A stretch of 53,155 nucleotides of DNA from a virus (Duplodnaviria; Caudoviricetes), in IMG/VR virus record IMGVR_UViG_3300029266_002291, positions 1-53,155 of that record; one strand, written 5' to 3'. The translations under genes were made by a program, and so were the position numbers. The notes under the pieces were generated by a model. The model was not told where the DNA came from and did not search any database. It saw only the letters and a list, made by a program, of their open reading frames with translations. Of the stretch, positions 62 through 27,908 are shown piece after piece (position 1 is the stretch's first letter; every line of letters begins with the position of its first letter).

Positions 62-649
62 GTGATCAAAGAAGTGTGTTATGCATGTTTGCTATGCAAA
101 AGGAGTGCTATGCTGTCTGCTATGCCCTTCATGACCTGCAGTCGCAACGACTGCGACACCGAGATCTACGTGACCCGGCTCTCCCGGTTCGGCACGGCCT
201 ACTGCCCCGCCGTGGAGTGCCAGCGAGAGCGCAATCGGATCCGCCAGAGGTACTTCGCTGCCTCCAAGAAGACGCAGGGGATCGACGTCTATGCGCCCTA
301 CCGGGCTGGCGCCAGGAAGCGCGAGAAGAAGCGCATGGCCACCGGAGAGATCAGTTCGAAGCGAGAACGGTACGCGGACAGCTACCGGGACGGAGATGCT
401 CGGCGCCGGGCCAAGAAGCTCGGGATCGAGGCAGAGAACGTCAAGGTGCGCGAGGTCTTCGAGCGAGACGGATGGGTCTGTGGCATCTGCCAGCTCCCCG
501 TGGATCCCGAGTTGAGTTACCCCGATCCCGAGTCAGCCTCCCTCGACCACGTCGTTCCGCTGTCGAAGGGCGGCAAGCACACGAGGGCCAACTCGCGCTG
601 CTCCCACCTGAGCTGCAACGTGCGCCGCGGGGCACGAGACGAGCTCTGA
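62..649 (+). CDS. HNH endonuclease (true start may be ATG 110 or 122)
   Basis: C-terminal VFERDGWVCGIC...SLDHVVPLSKGGKHTRANSRCSHLSCN is an HNH motif; N-terminal CxxC pairs. Confidence 0.9.
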   Translation: MIKEVCYACLLCKRSAMLSAMPFMTCSRNDCDTEIYVTRLSRFGTAYCPAVECQRERNRIRQRYFAASKKTQGIDVYAPYRAGARKREKKRMATGEISSKRERYADSYRDGDARRRAKKLGIEAENVKVREVFERDGWVCGICQLPVDPELSYPDPESASLDHVVPLSKGGKHTRANSRCSHLSCNVRRGARDEL

Positions 650-659
650 AGTCGCCAGA

Positions 660-940
660 TGCCGCTTCATCAAGATTTTTTGGAACAGTCAGGAGACCGT
701 CATCAAGATCATCTAGCCCTGAACAGCACTTATAGACCCCCTAGTGACACTTTTGACACTTTGACACTTATTTAGAAATACATCCCATGAAGGATGTGCA
801 TCAAGATCAATACGGGTTACAAACATCGCATGTAGATGATCTTGTGTGATGTGCACACACCACATGGGCCGGACCTGGAAAAAAAGCGTCAGTGTCAGAC
901 AAGCCTCTGACCTGGGCTTTCTCCTGTCACTTGTGTCAGG
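660..940. other. Putative replication origin: AT-rich, with iterons
   Basis: TGACACTT x3 at about 745-769; inverted GTGTCA copies near 892 and 933; CATCAAGAT at 668, 701 and 799; 12-bp inverted pair 704-715/833-844; lies just downstream of the primase-helicase. Confidence 0.6.
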
Positions 941-4367: not shown

Positions 4368-4756
4368 GCGCCGACGCCTGCCCGCCCGGCGTGCCCGAGG
4401 GCGCCCGATGCGTGACCCTGGCCCAGCTCCGCGACGAGGTGGCTAAGGAGAGCGGCAGCCTCCGGCGCGGGCCGCGCGGATCCTACCTGCGGTTCAAGAT
4501 CTGGCAGCCCAAGATGCTGTTCAGCGTGATGGGCACCGCGCGGGCTGTACTGGGCGGCGGGGTGAGCTCCGAGCACGGTCAGCGGGTGTTCGCACTGGAG
4601 TACGCCACCGGCATCCGGCGACCGGGCAGCTGGAGGGTGCTGGCGTTCACCGGCCCCAACGACTGGGCCGAGGTTCAGGTCTGGATCTGGACGCTGGACG
4701 ACGCCGAGCGTGAGCGGAAGACGCGCATCGCCGCGCGGGAAGCGAGGAGTGCATGA
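4364..4756 (+). CDS. Hypothetical protein
   Basis: GTGA overlap with the upstream gene and ATGA overlap with the helicase. Confidence 0.6.
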   Translation: MSADACPPGVPEGARCVTLAQLRDEVAKESGSLRRGPRGSYLRFKIWQPKMLFSVMGTARAVLGGGVSSEHGQRVFALEYATGIRRPGSWRVLAFTGPNDWAEVQVWIWTLDDAERERKTRIAAREARSA

Positions 4757-7317
4757 GCACGCTGACGAAGATCCTCGACCACATCGGCTTTGCGCCACGA
4801 CCGCAACAGGTCGCGCTCTACGAGGCCCTCATCGAGGCTGACGAGCAGGGGGTCGTCGCTCAGGCTGGCACCGGCTGCATCCAGGGCGACGCCGAGATCA
4901 TCATCAACCGCGGCGGCAACGGCGTTCGCCGACCACTCCGCGAGCTCGTCCACAAGTTCAACGGCGGAGTGGACGAGCGAGGGAAACGTTGGAACCTGAG
5001 AATCCCCACGATGGTCCAGCGCAAGGCTGCCGACGGGACGATCCGACTCGCCCGACTGAAGGCCGCGTGGTACAGCGGGATCAAGCAGACCTACACGGTC
5101 ACCACCTCCACCGGCCGTCAGGTCCGGGCTACAGACGAGCATCCCTTTCTGACCGAGCGCGGCTGGCTCCGGCTCGACGAACTGCAGATCGGTGAGTTGG
5201 TCCACGTCCGCGGCGAGCAGGCGGCCGGGAGGAAGTGCCAGCCGAAGCCCCAGTACGTCCAGGTGCACGGATTGGTCGGCCACCCCGGCGCGAGTCGCCG
5301 CGGCTACAAGCGCCACGGCTACCGCTACCCGCAACATCGGCTCGTGATCGAGGCCGAGATGAACGGACTGGACTACGACCTGTTCGTCAAGCGGCTGCGG
5401 GACGATGATGCTGACGACCTAGTCTTCCTGAGTTCGGAGCTCTACGCGGTTCACCACATCGACCGCGACTCGCAGAACAACGAGCGATCGAACCTGCAGG
5501 TGATGACCCACGAAGATCACCACCGCCTGCACGCCGACCTGGGTAAGACGCGGAGCGTCCTCTACAAGGCCGTCACGGAGGAGGTCGTCTCGGTCGAGCC
5601 CTACGGCATGGAGGAGACCTACGACCTGGAGGTTGAGGACGACCCACACAACTTCATCGCCAACGGCTTCGTGGTGCACAACACCGGTAAGTCGATCGCT
5701 GTACTTGCCGCGGCGGCCGACATGCGCGAGCTTCACGCAAAGCCGACCCTCGTCATCTGTCCGACCAATATCTTGCTCGACCAGTACCTCAACGTCGACG
5801 CGCCGCGAGTGTCCGAGGCGCTCGGCATCACGATCAAGTCGCTGAAGGGCCGCAACCGCTACCTCTGCAGCAATGCGCCGGGCTTCTCCGGCGTCGGCCG
5901 CCTGCCCGACGAGGTGATCGCCGCCGAGGTCGAGATGAACCAGCGGCTGCACGAGGAGGAGATCTACGAGCCGGAGAACACGCAGTGGTTCGGCTGCCCC
6001 GGCAGCGACGAGTGCGACCCGCGCAACGAGGACACCATCTGCCACTACCGTCGGGCCAAGAACGACCTCGACGGCGCCGACATCATCGTCACCAACGCGC
6101 ACCTGTTGATCATCAACGATCAGCTGCGCGGCAAGCCCCCGATCGAGCTCAAGGACAAGGAGACCGGTGAACCCATCGGCGAGTACCAGCCCAGCATCTT
6201 CCCCGAGCACGGCGCCGTCTTCGTCGACGAGGCCCACACCCTCGAGGACAACCTCCGCTCCTTCGCTACCCGAAGCATCCCTCTGGGAGCTGTTGACGGG
6301 CTGGGGCTGGGGACGTGGCTGGTCGGCCAGCAGCGCGCCCACCGCAGGGCCGTCGCCGTCACCCCCACCCGAGAACTGGCCGCGGCGCTGAAGGAGGTCG
6401 CCGACCAGCGTGACCCGGACCTCAACAAGCGGCAGAAGGAGGCCGTCGCCGCGGCGGCCTACATCATCCAGCGCGGGCAGGACAAGGCCTACGCCGAGAA
6501 CGAGGCCGTGCTCTGGTTCGACCCGCAGGAGTACCCGAAGAAGCCACGGCTGGTGAGCACCCAGATCAACCTCGCCGGTGGGGCTCGCCGGATCCTCACC
6601 GCCCAGCCATTCGGCCTCGTGTCGGGCACGGTGTCGAAGAGCCTCCGCGGCGCGCTCGGCATCACCGACGCCACCTTCCTGGATTGTGGGCACCCGTTTG
6701 ACTACGGCAAGCAGGTGACGCTGAAGATCAGCTCAAAGTCCGGCAGCTTCAAGGCGACGAAGAACAAGCCGGAGTGGACGATCGACCGGTTCAAGGAGAT
6801 CGAGGCCGCCGTCCGCGACTCCGGCGGCGGCGCGCTCCTCCTGTTCTCCAGCTACAAGGACATGGAGAACGCCTACTACTGGCTGAACAGGGCGTTGCTC
6901 GGCTCCGGGCTGGACCTGCGCACGCAAACGCGTGAGGGCGACAAGCGGGAGCTGGGCCAGTGGTTCAAGGACCACGGCAACGCCGTCCTGTTCGGCACCG
7001 AGTCCTTCGCCACCGGCTTCGACGTCCCCGGCGACGCGCTGCGCCTGGTGGTGATCTGGAAGCTGCCTTACCCTGGCCTGGACCCGGTGACGAAGGCCAT
7101 CTCGGCCCGTAGTCGCCAGCGGTACGAGGACATGATGCTAATGAAGGTCACGCAGGCCGCGGGGCGCCTGATCCGCACCTCGACCGACACCGGCACGATC
7201 TTCATCGCCGACTCCCGCGCCGAGGATGTCCTCTTCGGCCGCGACGACCCGATGATCGCCCACTTCGAGGAGATGGCCATGCCGAAGAAGAAGACCCGCG
7301 CCTGGGATGTCGAGTGA
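4753..7317 (+). CDS. DinG/XPD-family Fe-S helicase containing an intein
   Basis: PRPQQ Q-motif; spliced Walker A AGTG|TGKS; GRNRYLC...GCPG..C...C Fe-S cysteines; FVDEAH; LLFSSY; GFDVPGDAL; QAAGRLIRT. Confidence 0.9.
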   Translation: MSTLTKILDHIGFAPRPQQVALYEALIEADEQGVVAQAGTGCIQGDAEIIINRGGNGVRRPLRELVHKFNGGVDERGKRWNLRIPTMVQRKAADGTIRLARLKAAWYSGIKQTYTVTTSTGRQVRATDEHPFLTERGWLRLDELQIGELVHVRGEQAAGRKCQPKPQYVQVHGLVGHPGASRRGYKRHGYRYPQHRLVIEAEMNGLDYDLFVKRLRDDDADDLVFLSSELYAVHHIDRDSQNNERSNLQVMTHEDHHRLHADLGKTRSVLYKAVTEEVVSVEPYGMEETYDLEVEDDPHNFIANGFVVHNTGKSIAVLAAAADMRELHAKPTLVICPTNILLDQYLNVDAPRVSEALGITIKSLKGRNRYLCSNAPGFSGVGRLPDEVIAAEVEMNQRLHEEEIYEPENTQWFGCPGSDECDPRNEDTICHYRRAKNDLDGADIIVTNAHLLIINDQLRGKPPIELKDKETGEPIGEYQPSIFPEHGAVFVDEAHTLEDNLRSFATRSIPLGAVDGLGLGTWLVGQQRAHRRAVAVTPTRELAAALKEVADQRDPDLNKRQKEAVAAAAYIIQRGQDKAYAENEAVLWFDPQEYPKKPRLVSTQINLAGGARRILTAQPFGLVSGTVSKSLRGALGITDATFLDCGHPFDYGKQVTLKISSKSGSFKATKNKPEWTIDRFKEIEAAVRDSGGGALLLFSSYKDMENAYYWLNRALLGSGLDLRTQTREGDKRELGQWFKDHGNAVLFGTESFATGFDVPGDALRLVVIWKLPYPGLDPVTKAISARSRQRYEDMMLMKVTQAAGRLIRTSTDTGTIFIADSRAEDVLFGRDDPMIAHFEEMAMPKKKTRAWDVE
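4876..5682 (+). mobile_element. Class 1 intein (269 aa) with an HNH homing endonuclease, inserted in the helicase Walker A
   Basis: Starts CIQGD; block B ATDEHPFLT; ends NFIANGFVVHN followed by Thr; internal HRLV...VHHIDRDSQNNERSNL is HNH. Confidence 0.92.
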
Positions 7318-8953: not shown

Positions 8954-9007
8954 GCATCCCCGCGTGATACTGTTCTGACATCGTTTTGTTTCTACAACCG
9001 AAAGGAG

Positions 9008-12000
9008 GTGATCCCCATCCCATCCCTTCTTGAGGAAGCGGTCAAGCCGCTCGAACCGAATGAGCCGATCCCCCAGGATCTGCTCAACACCGTGACGGTC
9101 TCGCACATCGGTCCTACCTGGGAGCCGAACCCGAACTGGAACGGCGTGAATCTGCTCGGCCCCGAAGGCAAGTACATCCTGCCGGAGTTCTCGCTGGGCT
9201 ACCAGGCATGGGCGTGGGTGCGAGAGAATCTGCTCGCACCCGACTCCAACGACGCCCAACCCACGCCATTCACGCCGACGTTCGAGCAGTACCGCTTCGT
9301 TCTCTGGTGGTACGCCGTCGATAGCCATGGCCGCTTCCTATTTCGCCGCGGTGTTCTGCAGCGATTGAAGGGGTGGGGCGATTTTTTGGCAAGGACCCTC
9401 TTGCCGCAGTCATTTCCGCGATCGAGCTGCTCGGCCCGTGCCGCTTCAAGGGTTGGGCGACCAAGGATCTCCCGCAGTACGGCCTAGACCCCCAGGGACG
9501 CGCCGTAGTGCGTCGAGGCCTGCCCGTCGCGGCCGAGAACCCCACCGCGTGGGTGCAGATCGCCGCCGTCACCAAGACGCAGCCGCTGGCGCTTGACACT
9601 CCGGTTCGGACTATCAACGGCTGGTCGACGATGGGCGAACTCAAGGTCGGCGATGCCGTTTTCGGCTCCGACGGTCAGCCTGTCCCAGTGGCTCGTGAGA
9701 CCGAGGTGATGCATGGCCTGAAGTGCTACGAGGTCTCCTTCTCCGACGGAGAGAAGATAACGGCCTCGGCTAGCCACGGCTGGACCGTCGAGGGGCGCAA
9801 CGGACACGACGACGGCTTCATCAAGGAGACGTTGTCCACCGAGGAGCTGGCCGAGCGCTGGGATCGGAAACGCTGGCGATTCCGCATCCCGATCGTGCCG
9901 ATCATCACCGAAGATCGTGACCTGCCGCTCGACCCCTACATGCTCGGGCTGTGGCTCGGGGATGGCGCGACCGCTGACTCCACGATTGCCATCGACTGGC
10001 GACTACGTGACGAGATCGAAAGCATCGTTCAGCCGTACGTCGGTCTGGATGAAGAAGTGATCTGGAAGTACCAGAAGGGGAACTCCGGCACGTTCCGCAT
10101 CAGGACACGCCAGTACGTTTGCCCGCGCGGTCATCACTACGTGGACAACTACTGCATCCAGGCGGGCAACAAGGTGTGCCGCACCTGTATTCGTCTTGGC
10201 AAGGCGGGGCGCGCAGATGCACCCACCATCCCGACGTTCCGTGAGAAGCTGCGCGACATCGGAGTGCTGGGGGACAAGCACATCCCCGACAGTTACTTCC
10301 AGGCCGGGAGCAACCAGCGCCTCGCACTGCTTCAGGGTCTGATGGACTCCGACGGTGGCATCAGCCCCGGTGGCCGCGCCACCTTCACCAACAAGAACCT
10401 TGAGCTGATTGAGGGGATCTGTGAGATTCTCTCCTCTCTGGGGATTCGATGGAATGTGCAGCCCGCCGATAATGGCGCCCAACGAGTCCAGTTCACCCCC
10501 TGGGCGGCACTCAATCCCTTCCGCCTGGGTTACAAGAGGGAGCGGGTCCAGAGGGAGCGCCGTTACGCCCATCGCAGTATCGTTGGCGTCCGCGAGGTTG
10601 AGTCGGTCCCGGTGAAGTGCATCGGCATCGATACCGATGACCACCTGTTCCAGGTCGGATACTCGGGCATTCTCACGCACAACACTCAGAACACGATGTT
10701 GTTGATGCCTGGGCTCTTTAGTGACGAATGCAAGAGCAAGGCGCACATGCGCAACGACTCCATTGGCGTCACCAAGGTGACAGCTTTCCGTGGGCGCCGT
10801 CAGATTCAGGCTGTCACCTCAAACCCCCGCGCCCTGGAGGGCGGTCGCCCCTCACTGGTGATCAAGAACGAGACCGAGCACTGGATCGAGACGAACAACG
10901 GCTGGGCCATGGACAAGGCCATTGACCGCAACGCGGCGAAGTCCCGCAAGGGCGCCGCCCGGTCGCTGGCCATCTGCAACGCCCCCGAGCCGTCCGAGGA
11001 GTCCGTCGGCCTGAAGGAGCGCAACGCCTACCTCCGCGAGGTCGAGGGCACCGCGTTCAAGACCGGCGTCCTCTACGACTCCCTGGAGTTGGCGGAGTCC
11101 GTCACCCTCTACCCGCCGGGCATCGACCACCTGGAGCCGGAGTTCCAGGAGCCACTCGTCTACGAGTGGATCGAGTACGCGATCAAGAAGGTCCGCGGCG
11201 ACTCGTGGTGGCTGGACCCCGAGCGCATCGCCGCAGACATCCTGGACACCAAGGACTCCGACAACGGCGGCCTGTCCGAGGCCCGCCGGTTCTTCTTCAA
11301 CCAGACGATCGCCGCCGAGGACGCCTGGGTCCTTCCACAGGCTGTGGATCTCGCTGTGGACCCGTTGGTCGGCGCGCTGCGCACCCGCACCGCCGACGTC
11401 ATCCGCATCGGCTGGGAGCCCGTACGCCCCGACGAGCCGATCGTCATGTTCTTCGACGGCTCGAAGTCCGACGACGCCACCGCGCTGATCGGCTGCCGCC
11501 TGTCCGACGGCTACACCTTCACCATCGGCATCTGGCAGGCCCCACCGGGCCGGAGGCGCCGCGGGAAGAACTCCTGGCTGGCTCCCCGCGGTGAGGTCGA
11601 CACGCGCGTTGACGAGGCGTTCGAGCGGTTCACCGTCGTCGCCTTCTGGGCCGACCCCAGCCACGCCAAGGACGACGAGGACGGCGCGGGCTACTGGGAC
11701 GGCTTGATCGACGAGTGGCACCGCCTGCACAAGAACGAGCTGCTGCACTGGTCGACGAAGACGGGCGCCGAGCAGCACTCCATCCTATGGGACATGTCCT
11801 CGCCGCAGCGCACCAAGATGTTCGTCGCCGCGGCCGAGCGCACGGTCGCCGAGTTCGAGCGCCGCGACGAGCACAACGACATCGCCCCCACGTTCTCCAT
11901 CGACGGCAACCCGCGCCTCATGGAGCACCTCAAGAACGCCAAGATGGCGCCGAGCAACTTCGGCGTCGGCCTGCGCAAGGAGGGCCGTGAGAGTCTGCGT

Positions 12001-12111
12001 AAGATCGACGCTGCGGTCTGCCTGGTCGGCGCCCGACTCTTGCGTCGGATTGTGCTCAATGCCGAACCCGAGCCCGAGGAGCAGAAGGGCGGTTGGGCCT
12101 GGGCCGACTGA
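9008..12111 (+). CDS. terL: Terminase large subunit, split over two frames at about 9377-9390, with an intein
   Basis: Frame 1 TFEQYRFVLWWYAVD...RRGVLQRLKGWG continues in the -1 frame as GKDPLAA; EGGRPSLVIKNETEHW Walker B region; FFDGSKSDDATAL and KIDAAV nuclease motifs; AAAGGAGG RBS. Confidence 0.92.
9583..10683 (+). mobile_element. Class 3 intein (367 aa) with a LAGLIDADG endonuclease
   Basis: Starts PLALDTPV; W in ASASHGW, C in VPVKCIGID, T in ILTHN (WCT signature); LGLWLGDG and LLQGLMDSDG; exteins join as AAVTKTQ|TQNT. Confidence 0.88.
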
Positions 12112-12148: not shown

Positions 12149-13027
12149 ATGCCCGTCAACGTCCCCACGAACGAGGAGTTCGACGCGCTGGAGAAGCGCG
12201 TCGCCGCTCTCGAGAGCATCCCCACCCAGCCGGAGCCGGAGCCGGAGCCCGAGCCGGAGCCCCCCGCCCCCGAGCCGACCCCTGAGCCCCCGGCGCCCGA
12301 GCCCGTCGGGGATCCCCGTGGACCCTCCGGCGACACCGTCATCTGGCAGTGGGACCCCGCCGAGACCCTGGCCAAGCCGGGTGTCTGGCGGCACCTCCAG
12401 AACGCCGAGACTTCGAGTTCCAACCAGCTCGTCAGCGCCTGGCCGAACGGGACGGCGACCCGGACCACGCTGCCCGTCGTCGATGGCGAGAAGGTGGTCC
12501 TCTTCGAGTGCCGCCCAGGCGACGTAGGCGGCGGCAGCGGCAACCGTTCCGAGCTGTCCGGCGCGCTGCAGTCCTGGCGGTTCAAGGAGGGCGACGAGCG
12601 GTGGTTGCAGTACCGCATCGCCTTCCCCGAGGGCTTCGAGATCACCGGGCCCGGCTTCTTCATCGTCACGCAGTTCCACTCGGGCATCGGCTCCCCGCCG
12701 GTCAGCGTGAGCTTCGACGACGCTCGGAACCTCCGTGTCGGCGGCAACGTCCCCGGCGCCCCGAGCAACCTCCTGCTCAGCAAGGCCGACTTCGACGCCC
12801 GGCGTGGCACCTGGCTCGACGTGAACCTGCACCTGATCAACTCGCAGGACCCCGCCAAGGGCGGCCTGGAGGTCCACTTGGACGGCGAGCTGGTCATCCC
12901 GTGGCACAGCCGCGCGACGATGCTCTCGGCCGAGAACTACGTCAAGATCGGCATGTACCGCAACCCCGCGATCACGTCGACCAACCGCATCGCCTTCGGC
13001 GCCGGGATGCGGCTCACCGCTCCGTGA
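12149..13027 (+). CDS. Polysaccharide-lyase-like (jelly-roll) protein with a Pro-Glu linker
   Basis: NRSEL, IVTQFH and YVKIGMYR motifs; N-terminal FDALEKRVAALE coil followed by (PE)n. Confidence 0.65.
   Translation: MPVNVPTNEEFDALEKRVAALESIPTQPEPEPEPEPEPPAPEPTPEPPAPEPVGDPRGPSGDTVIWQWDPAETLAKPGVWRHLQNAETSSSNQLVSAWPNGTATRTTLPVVDGEKVVLFECRPGDVGGGSGNRSELSGALQSWRFKEGDERWLQYRIAFPEGFEITGPGFFIVTQFHSGIGSPPVSVSFDDARNLRVGGNVPGAPSNLLLSKADFDARRGTWLDVNLHLINSQDPAKGGLEVHLDGELVIPWHSRATMLSAENYVKIGMYRNPAITSTNRIAFGAGMRLTAP
12227..12305 (+). repeat. GAGCCG/C hexamer repeats encoding a Pro-Glu linker
   Basis: QPEPEPEPEPEPPAPEPTPEPPAPEP. Confidence 0.8.
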
Positions 13028-27099: not shown

Positions 27100-27456
27100 A
27101 TGGCTGCTGAGAACACCGTCCACCTCGACCTCGACGCGCTGGAGCGCGAGAGCGTCCAGGGTCTGCCGAAGAAGAAGAAGGACCCCTACTTCGTCGTCGC
27201 CGGTGGCAAGCGGGTCACCTTCCGCGACGCTGTCGAGCTGAACTACACCGTCCTCGCCACCATGGAGGACACCCCCGGCCGGTTCTTCCGTGCCGCGATC
27301 AAGGACCCGGCCGAGCGGACTCACTTCCTGAACTGGGCTAACGACGCCGGTGAGGACAACACCTCCGGCCTCAGCGGCGTGAAGCTCCGTGCCCTCATGG
27401 AGGGCTACCGGGACTACTACGGGCTGGACAAGATGGGAAACGCCGTCGGCTCCTAG
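27100..27456 (+). CDS. Tail assembly chaperone (G-like)
   Basis: Upstream of the tape measure gene; ends at slippery G GGA AAC. Confidence 0.85.
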   Translation: MAAENTVHLDLDALERESVQGLPKKKKDPYFVVAGGKRVTFRDAVELNYTVLATMEDTPGRFFRAAIKDPAERTHFLNWANDAGEDNTSGLSGVKLRALMEGYRDYYGLDKMGNAVGS

Positions 27457-27908
27457 CGTTACTGCAACGCTACGGAGCCGAGGTTGAGGTCGACCTCCAG
27501 ACGGTAGCCCAGCTTGACCTGGGCTACCTCTGGAGGGCTCGCAAATGGCGGAAGCTGTTGAACTTCATCGACAAGCTGCCCGCCAACTCGAAGACCAACG
27601 AGGCGATGGCCAACGACGCCGACTACGTTCGGGCGGTCCTCAAGAGCGGCACCAAGCTCAAGTCGTCGAACAACCCCGGCCTGTCCGTCTGGACGATCGA
27701 GGCCGCACTGCTGGCGCGCAACAACGATCTGCAGCAGCAGAACAACCTCCTGCTCCAGAAGATCAACTCCAAGGCCGGTGCGCAGGTGCCGCAGTTCGTC
27801 CCCGAGCCCCGGCCACTCACCGCCTTCGACGCCGTGCGCCAGGAGCGCAAGCTCGCGACTTACCATGATCTGACGTCTAAGCTGTTGGGCAGCCGCGCAG
27901 GGAAGTAG
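27100..27908 (+). CDS. Tail assembly chaperone -1 frameshift product (GT-like)
   Basis: GGGAAAC at 27435-27441; -1 frame open from 27438 (KRRRLLALLQRYGAEVEVDL...) through 27908. Confidence 0.85.

What the first reader, a model, noticed from the sequence alone, without database searches (positions are those of the whole stretch)
9362..9410. Terminase Walker A interrupted by an 11-nt insert with matched GGC codons: candidate ribosomal bypass or frameshift
Seen: frame 1 reads CGA TTG AAG GGG TGG GGC(9377) GAT TTT TTG, while the rest of the terminase continues in the -1 frame as GGC(9388) AAG GAC CCT. Removing exactly 11 nt (GATTTTTTGGC) restores RLKGWGKDP, the Walker A I recall for this actinophage terminase family. 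A one-base homopolymer error would not restore it; it would give GWGDFFGKD. A GGCAAG-GACCCT-CTTGCC hairpin begins at the second GGC, and an SD-like AAGGGGTG lies just upstream. Established: T4 gene 60 bypassing uses matched Gly take-off and landing codons. From memory, and needing verification, a short bypass was proposed for the terminase of a Streptomyces phage (phiHau3). Inference: an essential gene is decoded either by an 11-nt GGC-to-GGC hop, or by -1 slippage at T TTT TTG yielding a P-loop 4 aa longer. Either could throttle terminase levels or destroy a homing-endonuclease target site.
Basis: partly seen in the sequence, partly recalled or inferred. Interest (0 to 1): 0.9.

Follow-up and report, generated by a model that had tools for sequence, protein, structure and literature searches.

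The report
Short coding gap in terminase P-loop
This uncultured actinobacterial phage's DNA-packaging motor gene is broken inside its ATP-binding loop by 11 extra bases that ribosomes most likely hop over, as shown for one Streptomyces phage, but here the gap lacks the slow codon that normally triggers the hop.

Summary
terL is split between frame A (9008-9379, ends ...RLKGWG) and frame B (from 9391, KDPLAAV...). The split is an 11-nt insert, GATTTTTTGGC (9380-9390), flanked by matched GGC codons.

It is not an assembly artefact. Contigs from 3 runs in 2 studies span it unchanged.

The same junction carries 5-16-nt gaps in 67 other distinct actinophage or prophage terL loci that I collected. 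56 of 56 uninterrupted homologues have an indel-free LQRLKG[W/H]GKDP. For phiHau3, mass spectrometry showed the GWG|(K)DP junction peptide (PMC10732093).

Best reading, about 0.52: peptidyl-tRNA-Gly hops from GGC 9377 to GGC 9388.

The window is atypical. 64 of 68 gaps begin with a stop codon or UUA, whereas this one begins with an ordinary GAU and holds a U6 run. That run makes an in-frame U_UUU_UUG heptamer. The rival is therefore a -1 slip giving GWGDFFGKDP (about 0.22), or a dead gene (about 0.16).

The phage's genuine -1 site (G_GGA_AAC plus a strong hairpin) looks quite different. The terL hairpin is no better than shuffled sequence.

Verdict: a new variant of a known kind. The scan has reported sister cases on other DNA.

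The parts
9008..9379 (+). terL part 1: N-terminal 124 codons, ending in the P-loop residues ...VLQRLKGWG.
   Evidence: ORF list. phrog_9 terminase large subunit, E 5e-12. tblastn matches terL of 1407 phage records up to residue 124.
9368..9378 (+). SD-like purine run AAGGGGTGGGG, which encodes K-G-W-G. The 3' end of AAGGGG (9373) lies 6 nt before the codon that follows the take-off codon.
   Evidence: Sequence. This is the spacing that PMC10732093 gives for the prfB stimulator. Any function here is inferred.
9377..9379 (+). Proposed take-off codon GGC (Gly124).
   Evidence: Uninterrupted relatives in the same runs align up to 9379 and then continue directly with AAAGACCC (loose end).
9380..9387 (+). 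Untranslated gap GATTTTTT (8 nt). With the landing codon the insert is 11 nt.
   Evidence: Absent from R4 and from 113 distinct uninterrupted loci.
9382..9388 (+). U_UUU_UUG heptamer in the zero frame. This is the rival -1 slip site, whose product would be GWGDFFGKDP.
   Evidence: One of only two TTTTTTG sites in the window. No spacer before the hairpin, and the downstream fold has z = -0.26.
9388..9390 (+). Proposed landing codon GGC. Decoding would resume at AAG 9391.
   Evidence: It is the first GGY after the take-off codon.
9387..9406 (+). 8-bp hairpin (UGGCAAGG/UCUUGCCG) that includes the landing codon.
   Evidence: -9.8 kcal/mol, z = -0.80, 43 of 200 shuffles fold as well. Present, but not significant.
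9391..9582 (+). terL part 2: KDPLAAV...AAVTKTQ. This is the start of the P-loop helix and the rest of the N-extein.
   Evidence: Alignment A1. The model of homologue P0029 has strand 113-117, loop 118-123 and helix 124-137.
9485..9487 (+). TAG that ends the zero frame if no recoding happens. The product would be 159 aa.
9583..10683 (+). Class-3-type intein (Pro1, no N-terminal nucleophile) with a LAGLIDADG endonuclease, inserted at KTQ|TQNT.
   Evidence: Pfam LAGLIDADG_3, E 3.7e-6. Boundaries from alignment with homologues. The SASHGW, VKCIGI and LTHN|T motifs were read from the translation. The WCT rule itself is recalled, not tested.
10684..12111 (+). terL C-extein: rest of the ATPase domain plus the nuclease domain, with the stop codon.
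   Evidence: 68% identical over 477 columns to uninterrupted P0029, to its end. phrog_9, E 2.8e-29.

Best explanation
The window's only large-terminase gene carries a short coding gap of the phiHau3 kind. Ribosomes translate to Gly124 (GGC 9377-9379). Peptidyl-tRNA-Gly(GCC) then unpairs, the mRNA slides 11 nt, and the tRNA re-pairs with the identical GGC at 9388-9390. Decoding resumes at AAG 9391, which restores the invariant P-loop LKGWG-KDP. The fused precursor then still has to splice out a class-3-type intein.

Shown: the insert, its exact position, the matched codons, the family-wide pattern, and selection on interrupted relatives.

Inferred: that the hop happens in this phage, and what drives it. 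The likely drivers are the features shared by all family members. These are the SD-like AAGGGG 6 nt before the A-site codon, the KGWG nascent peptide, and the AU-rich gap with no competing landing triplet. The usual slow A-site codon is absent here, so efficiency may be low.
For: (1) Position. The insert sits exactly between the Gly and Lys codons that are adjacent in R4 and in 113 distinct uninterrupted loci. Relatives' contigs in the same runs align up to 9379 and continue with AAAGACCC.

(2) Family. I hold 68 distinct interrupted loci, counting the window. 53 have the gap after GGN and 15 have it after the preceding TGG. Gaps are 5-16 nt, plus one of 1 nt. Lengths fall in all three classes modulo 3. 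The 13 in-frame gaps are all stop-led.

(3) Landing. The last three gap bases are GGY after a GGY take-off in 42 of 52 class-A gaps. The other 10 match 2 of 3 bases.

(4) P-loop invariance. 56 of 56 whole homologues have LQRLKG[W/H]GKDP with no indel. 0 of 181 loci have an in-frame sense insert.

(5) Selection. Within interrupted clades, pairs without indels give dN 0.00-0.16 against dS 0.07-2.5 on both sides of the gap. The gap tagccagg / tagtcagg / tagctagg persists through this divergence.

(6) The interrupted state changed at least 11 times on a 146-row tree, and at least 7 changes are forced by starred branches.

(7) Experiment in print. phiHau3 g6/g7 gave the junction peptide GWG|NDPLL by MS in E. 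coli, with K mutated to N (PMC10732093, section 3.6).

(8) The rest of the gene is intact. The C-extein is 68% identical to a whole homologue to its end.

(9) The insert is stable in contigs from 3 runs in 2 studies.

(10) The homologue model is a TerL fold (HK97 TerL, E 1e-16). GWG|K lies in the strand-loop-helix P-loop.
Against: The first gap codon is GAU. It makes up 103 of 933 Asp codons (11%) and about 0.6% of all codons in a crude gene set. I recall that the tRNA reading GAC also reads it; this is not tested. So the 'hungry' A-site codon is missing. That codon is a stop or UUA in 64 of 68 gaps, and AGA or CCA in two more. The literature calls it significant (PMC10732093; bioRxiv 10.1101/2022.08.31.505936, passages read).

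The gap instead forms a perfect in-frame -1 heptamer on a U6 run that is very unusual for this genome. This looks non-accidental and suits slippage.

No other record holds this gap: 0 hits in IMG/VR. Its conservation therefore cannot be tested.

The local RNA structure is not above chance.

No protein or RNA evidence exists for this phage. Window versus sister L015 gives only moderate dN/dS of 0.31-0.52.
Confidence: 0.52

Rival explanations
1. A -1 shift on the U run. This could be tandem or P-site slippage at U_UUU_UUG, RNA-polymerase slippage, or T6/T7 length variation adding one U. All give a TerL with three extra residues in the P-loop (GWG-DFF-GKDP), and that protein would be the active or a tolerated form.
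For: The heptamer is in the zero frame. T6 runs are very rare here, 2 in 53 kb, and TTT is 15 of 464 Phe codons, so the run is unlikely to be accidental. tRNA-Phe can re-pair perfectly. An SD-like run lies 8 nt upstream. No slow codon is present to launch a hop. The window is the only gap of 68 with such a run.
Against: No relative has any residue inserted here: 0 of 181 loci and 0 of 56 proteins. The insert would displace invariant R118, K120 and G121 from the GK. The hairpin starts at the last base of the heptamer with no spacer, and is not above shuffles (z = -0.80 and -0.26). The phage's own tail-chaperone -1 site has G_GGA_AAC and then a -28.7 kcal/mol hairpin with z = -3.99 and 0 of 200 shuffles as good. 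A -1 reading also leaves the exact GGC repeat and the family position unexplained.
Confidence: 0.22
2. The gene is dead or nearly so. A formerly hop-competent, stop-led gap like that of sister L015 mutated and lost its trigger. The record would then be a defective prophage, or a phage that depends on a helper's terminase.
For: The gap is unique and lacks the family's slow first codon. Its sister L015 has a stop-led 13-nt gap. The record is a linear metagenomic contig, about 90% complete, with unknown lifestyle. Contigs cannot show viability.
Against: The remaining 906 codons of frame B are open and conserved to the end. The intein motifs are intact. Identical sequence occurs in 2 studies, dated 2023 and 2025. 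The landing codon still matches the take-off codon perfectly.
Confidence: 0.16
3. A sequencing or assembly artefact, or two separate polypeptides that work without fusion.
For: Homopolymers can be miscounted. GTG 9373 opens frame B.
Against: Three independent short-read contigs carry the same 11 nt with no indel. No single-base error restores the motif. GTG 9373 overlaps the SD-like run with no spacer. A split would also cut the P-loop between the strand and the helix.
Confidence: 0.03

Closest known systems
Candidate and partly demonstrated translational bypassing in the large terminase of Streptomyces phage phiHau3, prophage StrepC.1 and an S. catenulae prophage (Smith et al. 2013, not held, cited via PMC10732093; Antonov et al. 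2023, PMC10732093)
   Same: The same protein family and the same codon junction (GWG|KDP). The same take-off amino acid, with a landing codon read by the same tRNA-Gly. The same upstream KGWG / SD-like context. A short gap (7-10 nt there, 11 nt here).
   Different: [quoted passage not shown] A U6 run forms a -1 heptamer. The frame offset is -1 rather than +1. The phage is only about 41-45% identical to any cultured actinophage terL, comes from wastewater and urban metagenomes, and has no known host. It has only one gap (phiHau3 has two) plus an intein.
Phage T4 gene 60 50-nt bypass and its homologues (bioRxiv 10.1101/2022.08.31.505936, passages read)
   Same: Matched Gly take-off and landing codons. 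An AU-rich gap. An SD element and a nascent peptide proposed as helpers. An essential phage gene, possibly linked to homing-endonuclease pressure.
   Different: The gap is 8 nt, not 47-50. No take-off stem-loop can form inside it. No stop or hungry codon. An unrelated gene. Not a member.
Synthetic 'stop-hops' and hungry-codon hops in E. coli (Weiss et al. 1987; Gallant and Lindsley; cited in PMC5009743, passages read)
   Same: Short-distance re-pairing of peptidyl-tRNA at a matched, non-overlapping codon.
   Different: Those hops need a stop or a starved codon in the A site and are inefficient. Here the A-site codon is ordinary.
Canonical -1 programmed frameshifting, for example this phage's own tail-chaperone G/GT site at 27435-27441
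   Same: An X_XXY_YYZ heptamer in the zero frame.
   Different: No spaced stimulatory structure. The product would break an invariant motif instead of making a conserved extension.

Membership tests
phiHau3-type short bypass in actinophage terL | Frame-disrupting short insert exactly between the Gly and Lys codons of GWG|KDP, relative to uninterrupted homologues | tested here: met
   The insert is 11 nt at 9380-9390.
phiHau3-type short bypass in actinophage terL | Take-off and landing codons readable by one tRNA | tested here: met
   GGC 9377 and GGC 9388. 42 of 52 family gaps land on GGY.
phiHau3-type short bypass in actinophage terL | Slow-to-decode codon (UUA, or a stop) in the A site at take-off | tested here: not met
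   The codon is GAU, 11% of Asp codons in the window. 64 of 68 gaps start with a stop or TTA.
phiHau3-type short bypass in actinophage terL | Upstream SD-like sequence and KGWG nascent peptide | tested here: met
   AAGGGGTGGGG at 9368-9378. The KGWG role is proposed in PMC5009743. Function was not tested.
phiHau3-type short bypass in actinophage terL | Local RNA structure around the gap | tested here: inconclusive
   A hairpin is present, but z = -0.80 and 43 of 200 shuffles fold as well.
phiHau3-type short bypass in actinophage terL | Junction peptide GWG-KDP in the protein | not testable with these tools
   Needs mass spectrometry. It was shown only for phiHau3 in E. coli.
T4 gene 60-type bypass | About 50-nt gap with a take-off stem-loop and a stop codon after the take-off codon | tested here: not met
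   The gap is 8 nt with no stop and no room for a stem-loop.
Canonical -1 programmed ribosomal frameshift | X_XXY_YYZ heptamer in the zero frame | tested here: met
   T TTT TTG at 9382-9388.
Canonical -1 programmed ribosomal frameshift | Stimulatory structure 5-9 nt downstream, more stable than chance | tested here: not met
   The hairpin begins at the heptamer's last base, with z = -0.26 and -0.80. The internal control site has z = -3.99.
Canonical -1 programmed ribosomal frameshift | Trans-frame product conserved in relatives | tested here: not met
   0 of 181 loci and 0 of 56 proteins have extra P-loop residues.
TerL ATPase Walker A (P-loop) | Strand-loop-helix with GK at the helix start, in a TerL fold | tested here: met
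   The P0029 model has pLDDT 88.7 with strand 113-117, loop LKGWG and helix from K124. Foldseek gives HK97 TerL at E 1e-16, plus Sf6 and T4. A residue-level superposition was not printed. Pfam TerL_ATPase is only sub-threshold (E 0.045).
Class 3 intein | No Cys/Ser/Thr at position 1, and a Trp(B)-Cys(F)-Thr(G) triplet | tested here: met
   Pro1 at 9583. SASHGW, VKCIGI and LTHN|T were read in the translation. The rule itself is recalled.

The most novel reading that the evidence does not exclude
Take-off at this P-loop Gly codon needs no slow A-site codon. In this reading, three features make it an intrinsic launch pad: the invariant KGWG nascent peptide, the SD-like AAGGGG at the prfB spacing, and Gly-tRNA in the P site. 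That would explain why at least 7-11 independent gap gains cluster on two adjacent codons of one motif. The window's GAU/U6 gap would then be the first natural short hop over an ordinary sense codon, possibly with the U run serving as a low-friction, decoy-free slide.
Probability: 0.27. Interest if true: 0.8.

Novelty: new variant of a known kind. Interest (0 to 1): 0.62.

Why it matters
Natural translational bypassing is known from very few systems. In print, the terminase case rests on three UUA-led Streptomyces examples, explained as a sensor of the host's bldA tRNA.

The collection made here shows the same P-loop junction interrupted in 68 distinct loci. Most gaps are stop-led. They use two adjacent take-off codons, the genes are under purifying selection, and one case lies in Actinoplanes, outside Streptomyces.

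The window is the sharpest test of the rule that a hop needs a hungry codon. If it still makes GWGKDP, the trigger must lie in the conserved upstream context. If it makes GWGDFFGKDP, a P-loop thought invariant tolerates three extra residues. Either way, one reporter construct and one junction peptide decide it.

There is also a practical point. Gene callers split these terminases. GreenWeasel and Triumph, for example, are annotated as 2-3 separate genes.

Tried and rejected
**Steps that led nowhere**
- megablast of 9000-9700 against phages found no match.
- Pfam on the N-terminal fragment found nothing. Pfam on whole homologues gave only a sub-threshold TerL_ATPase hit.
- phmmer of P0029 against PDB sequences gave 0 hits. 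The fold search was used instead.
- The search for related loci with the N-terminal fragment in viral contigs gave 1 distant locus, L006, which I did not use.
- A pattern for the window's own gap gave 0 hits in IMG/VR.
- The strict pattern with AAA as the Lys codon gave only 3 loci already held.
- No terminator-like or promoter-like sites were called at 9100-9700 or 400-1000.
- No tRNA genes were found in the window.
- Pfam on 9 arm ORFs found no integrase or anything else, so lifestyle and host are unresolved.
- The best cultured relative of the C-extein is only 41% identical.
- No RNA holder was listed for the stretch. Runs X1-X4 are labelled RNA-Seq but are probably DNA. Expression is untested.
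- Smith et al. 2013 (PMC3807479) is not held.
- The supplements of PMC10732093 (its lists of ter genes and gap sequences) are closed. They may name more cases than the main text does.

**Limits of my own analyses**
- In one search I compared codons without aligning. Pairs with indels (all pairs with L207, and several Streptomyces pairs) gave meaningless dN above 1.2 and are disregarded.
- In one search I dropped rows with under 80 upstream or under 100 downstream residues, and dropped duplicates, which left 146 of 169 rows. L050 (a 1-nt insert) was labelled whole.
- Also, the window's 105 residues ran about 40 residues into the intein, which inflates its branch. Its sistership to L015 rests also on 77% N-terminal identity.
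The census is therefore a collection, not a rate.
- The closest relative, P0002 (82% identity), also reads on in the -1 frame after GWG with an Arg codon first. Its DNA could not be fetched.

**Considered and rejected**
- An intron or RNA-level removal: 11 nt is too short.
- A split functional protein: it would cut the P-loop.

**Literature searches.** Whether stop-led or sense-led gaps in this family are in print was checked. Only the phiHau3 line of work turned up.
Full report
**1. The observation**

The window is one IMG/VR virus record: 53,155 nt, linear, about 90% complete, 63-70% G+C. It has a siphovirus-like module of terS-like gene, terL, portal, protease and capsid.

terL is in two frames. 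ORF 9008..9487 encodes the N-terminus up to ...RRGVLQRLKGWG and then runs on as DFLARTLL... to a TAG at 9485. ORF 9373..12111, in the -1 frame, carries GKDPLAAV... and the rest of the protein.

The DNA reads TGG GGC(9377) GATTTTTT GGC(9388) AAG GAC CCT. Intact phage R4 reads TGG GGC AAG GAC CCG at the same place. The difference is therefore an 11-nt insert, GATTTTTTGGC, whose last three bases repeat the Gly codon in front of it.

The hairpin (9387-9406, -9.8 kcal/mol) is no better than shuffled sequence, with z = -0.80 and 43 of 200 shuffles as good.

**2. Not an artefact**

Logan contigs of public runs were laid on 9000-9900. X1 record 5 (342 nt, 1 mismatch), X3 record 19 (151 nt, 0 mismatches) and X5 record 25 (163 nt, 0 mismatches, a different study) bridge the insert. 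No inserted or deleted letters were listed.

These are contigs of short-read runs, so rare variants would be invisible, and one run may be the window's own source.

The same runs hold relatives whose contigs match the window up to 9379 and then continue directly with AAAGACCC... This marks the insert boundary independently. A one-base error cannot restore the motif, since it would give GWGDFFGKDP.

**3. What the site is**

A model of the uninterrupted homologue P0029 has mean pLDDT 88.7. It matches solved large terminases: HK97 at E 1e-16, plus Sf6 gp2, T4 gp17 and D6E. In the model, GVLQR is a strand, LKGWG is a loop, and K124-D-P starts a helix. This is the P-loop arrangement.

Among 56 uninterrupted homologues, LQRLKG[W/H]GKDP has no indel, and L, Q, R, L, K, G, G, K, D and P are invariant.

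The insert therefore cuts the ATP-binding loop of an essential enzyme. The rest of the gene is sound. The C-extein is 68% identical to P0029 over 477 columns, to its end.

**4. The family picture**

Protein searches returned many N-terminal fragments that stop right after ...LKGWG or ...LKGW. I then ran pattern scans for the conserved flanks with a variable gap:
- viral contigs: 17 loci, plus 3 more with the AAA Lys codon;
- species genomes: 16 loci, 15 in Streptomyces and 1 in Actinoplanes;
- JGI metagenomes: 12 loci.

Looser scans added 18 more, and 19 of a second class with the gap one codon earlier, after TGG.

After removing duplicates I hold 181 distinct family loci: 113 whole, 53 class A (including the window) and 15 class B.

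The gaps are 5-16 nt, plus one 1-nt case. Their lengths fall in all three classes modulo 3. The 13 in-frame gaps all begin with a stop codon, so no frameshift can rescue them.

The first gap codon is TTA (24), TAG (21), TGA (14) or TAA (5) in 64 of 68. The exceptions are AGA (L314), CCA (L021), a single A (L050) and the window's GAT.

In class A, 42 of 52 gaps end in GGY after a GGY take-off, and the rest match two of three bases. GGG is never a take-off codon, although 13 of 113 whole genes use it. In class B the gap ends in AGG, TGG or TGA after the TGG take-off.

On a tree of 146 rows, the interrupted state needs at least 11 changes, and at least 7 are forced by well-supported branches.

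Within interrupted clades, pairs without indels give dN 0.00-0.16 against dS 0.07-2.5 on both sides of the gap. An 8-nt gap (tagccagg and two one-base variants) persists throughout.

These genes are alive, so the gap must be skipped.

**5. What is in print**

For phiHau3, Antonov et al. 2023 (PMC10732093; outline, sections 3.4 and 3.6 and other passages read) report full-length product. By mass spectrometry in E. coli they found a junction peptide, GWG|NDPLL..., with Lys mutated to Asn. They found only 3 of 100 Streptomyces ter genes interrupted, all UUA-led. They interpret the UUA as a sensor of the host's rare tRNA.

The 2016 review (PMC5009743, passages read) adds that the KGWG nascent peptide is likely to matter. 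My three literature searches found nothing on stop-led or sense-led gaps in this family. The supplements were closed.

The scan itself has reported sister cases on other DNA: e1-6282824, e1-3754823 and e1-5649859.

**6. How the window differs**

Its gap starts with GAU. That codon is 11% of Asp codons and about 0.6% of all codons in a crude gene set, compared with 2 TTA codons in 16,751. I recall that the tRNA for GAC also reads it. So the slow A-site codon, which both the terminase and the gene 60 literature treat as significant, is absent.

The gap instead holds a U6 run. This is one of two in 53 kb, and TTT is 3% of Phe codons. The run makes the zero-frame heptamer U_UUU_UUG. A -1 slip there would give GWG-DFF-GKDP.

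Several points count against that reading:
- No relative tolerates any extra residue here.
- The hairpin starts at the heptamer's last base, with no spacer, and is not above chance (z = -0.26).
- The phage's own tail-chaperone site shows what a programmed -1 site looks like in this genome. It has G_GGA_AAC (27435-27441), then a -28.7 kcal/mol hairpin with z = -3.99, and an open -1 frame of 157 codons ending just before the tape-measure gene.

Several points favour the hop:
- The landing codon is a perfect repeat of the take-off codon.
- It is the first GGY downstream.
- The gap holds no competing triplet.
- The 11-nt distance lies within the family range.
- AAGGGG ends 6 nt before the A-site codon, which is the spacing given for the prfB stimulator.

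The nearest held relative, L015 (77% identical over the N-terminal 90 residues), has a 13-nt TAG-led gap. This lineage has probably been gapped for some time while the gap sequence turned over. Window versus L015 gives dN/dS of 0.31, 0.52 and 0.42 for the three parts. That is purifying but not strongly so.

The closest protein, P0002 (82% identical), also reads on in the -1 frame after GWG, with an Arg codon first.

**7. Verdict**

| Reading | Probability |
|---|---|
| GGC-to-GGC hop restoring GWGKDP | about 0.52 |
| -1 slip or added U giving GWGDFFGKDP | about 0.22 |
| Recently inactivated gene | about 0.16 |
| Artefact or split protein | about 0.03 |
| Other | remainder |

The site is a member of the gap family by position, landing codon and context. 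It fails one defining feature of the published mechanism, the slow A-site codon. I therefore file it as a new variant of a known kind.

It works like a phiHau3-type hop. It is not a gene 60-type element or a canonical -1 site.

Active terminase would need two repairs: the recoding event, and splicing of the class-3-type intein 65 codons downstream.

Noticed in passing
window 9583-10683: Class-3-type intein (Pro1; Trp, Cys and Thr in blocks B, F and G) with a LAGLIDADG endonuclease, inserted at AAVTKTQ|TQNTM of terL. Relative P0031 carries a Ser1 intein at a different terL site (NE|TEHW).
   Followed up: partly
window 674-683 and 9380-9389: The 10-mer GATTTTTTGG (the gap plus the first 2 nt of the landing codon) occurs a second time, about 25 nt after the stop of ORF 62..649. 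These two places hold the only T>=6 runs in the window. My own rough estimate of the chance of a second exact copy is about 0.01. Its meaning is unknown.
   Followed up: partly
window 27435-27441 and 27442-27484: Canonical tail-assembly-chaperone -1 frameshift site: G_GGA_AAC, then a -28.7 kcal/mol hairpin (z = -3.99). The -1 frame is open for 157 codons, to just before the 1669-aa tape-measure gene.
   Followed up: yes
loci L172-L220 (IMG/VR), 19 loci, 15 distinct: A second class of terL gaps one codon upstream: TGG (Trp) take-off, a gap such as tagccagg, landing on AGG, TGG or TGA, and then GGN AAR GAY. The gap is conserved across dS 0.3-2. A contig of this kind is also present in run X1 (loose end at 9394).
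   Followed up: partly
L001, L002, L010, L012, L014, L019, L022, L025, L030, L031, L033, L034, L038: In these interrupted loci the frame after the first gap closes again after about 108-129 codons. This suggests a recurrent second gap, like phiHau3 g7/g8. I did not examine it.
   Followed up: no
L002 (GreenWeasel) and L003 (Triumph): GenBank annotations split these terminases into 2-3 'hypothetical protein' and 'terminase' genes at the gap.
   Followed up: no
window 4753-7317: An 854-aa helicase ORF with HNH-endonuclease and terminase-like PHROG hits in residues 231-321.
   Followed up: no
window 12149-13027: A polysaccharide-lyase-domain protein (PF14099, E 8e-20) is encoded between terL and the portal gene.
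   Followed up: no
L050 (metagenome contig): A terL with a single extra A between GGC and AAA GAT. This is either a homopolymer error or a +1 site.
   Followed up: no
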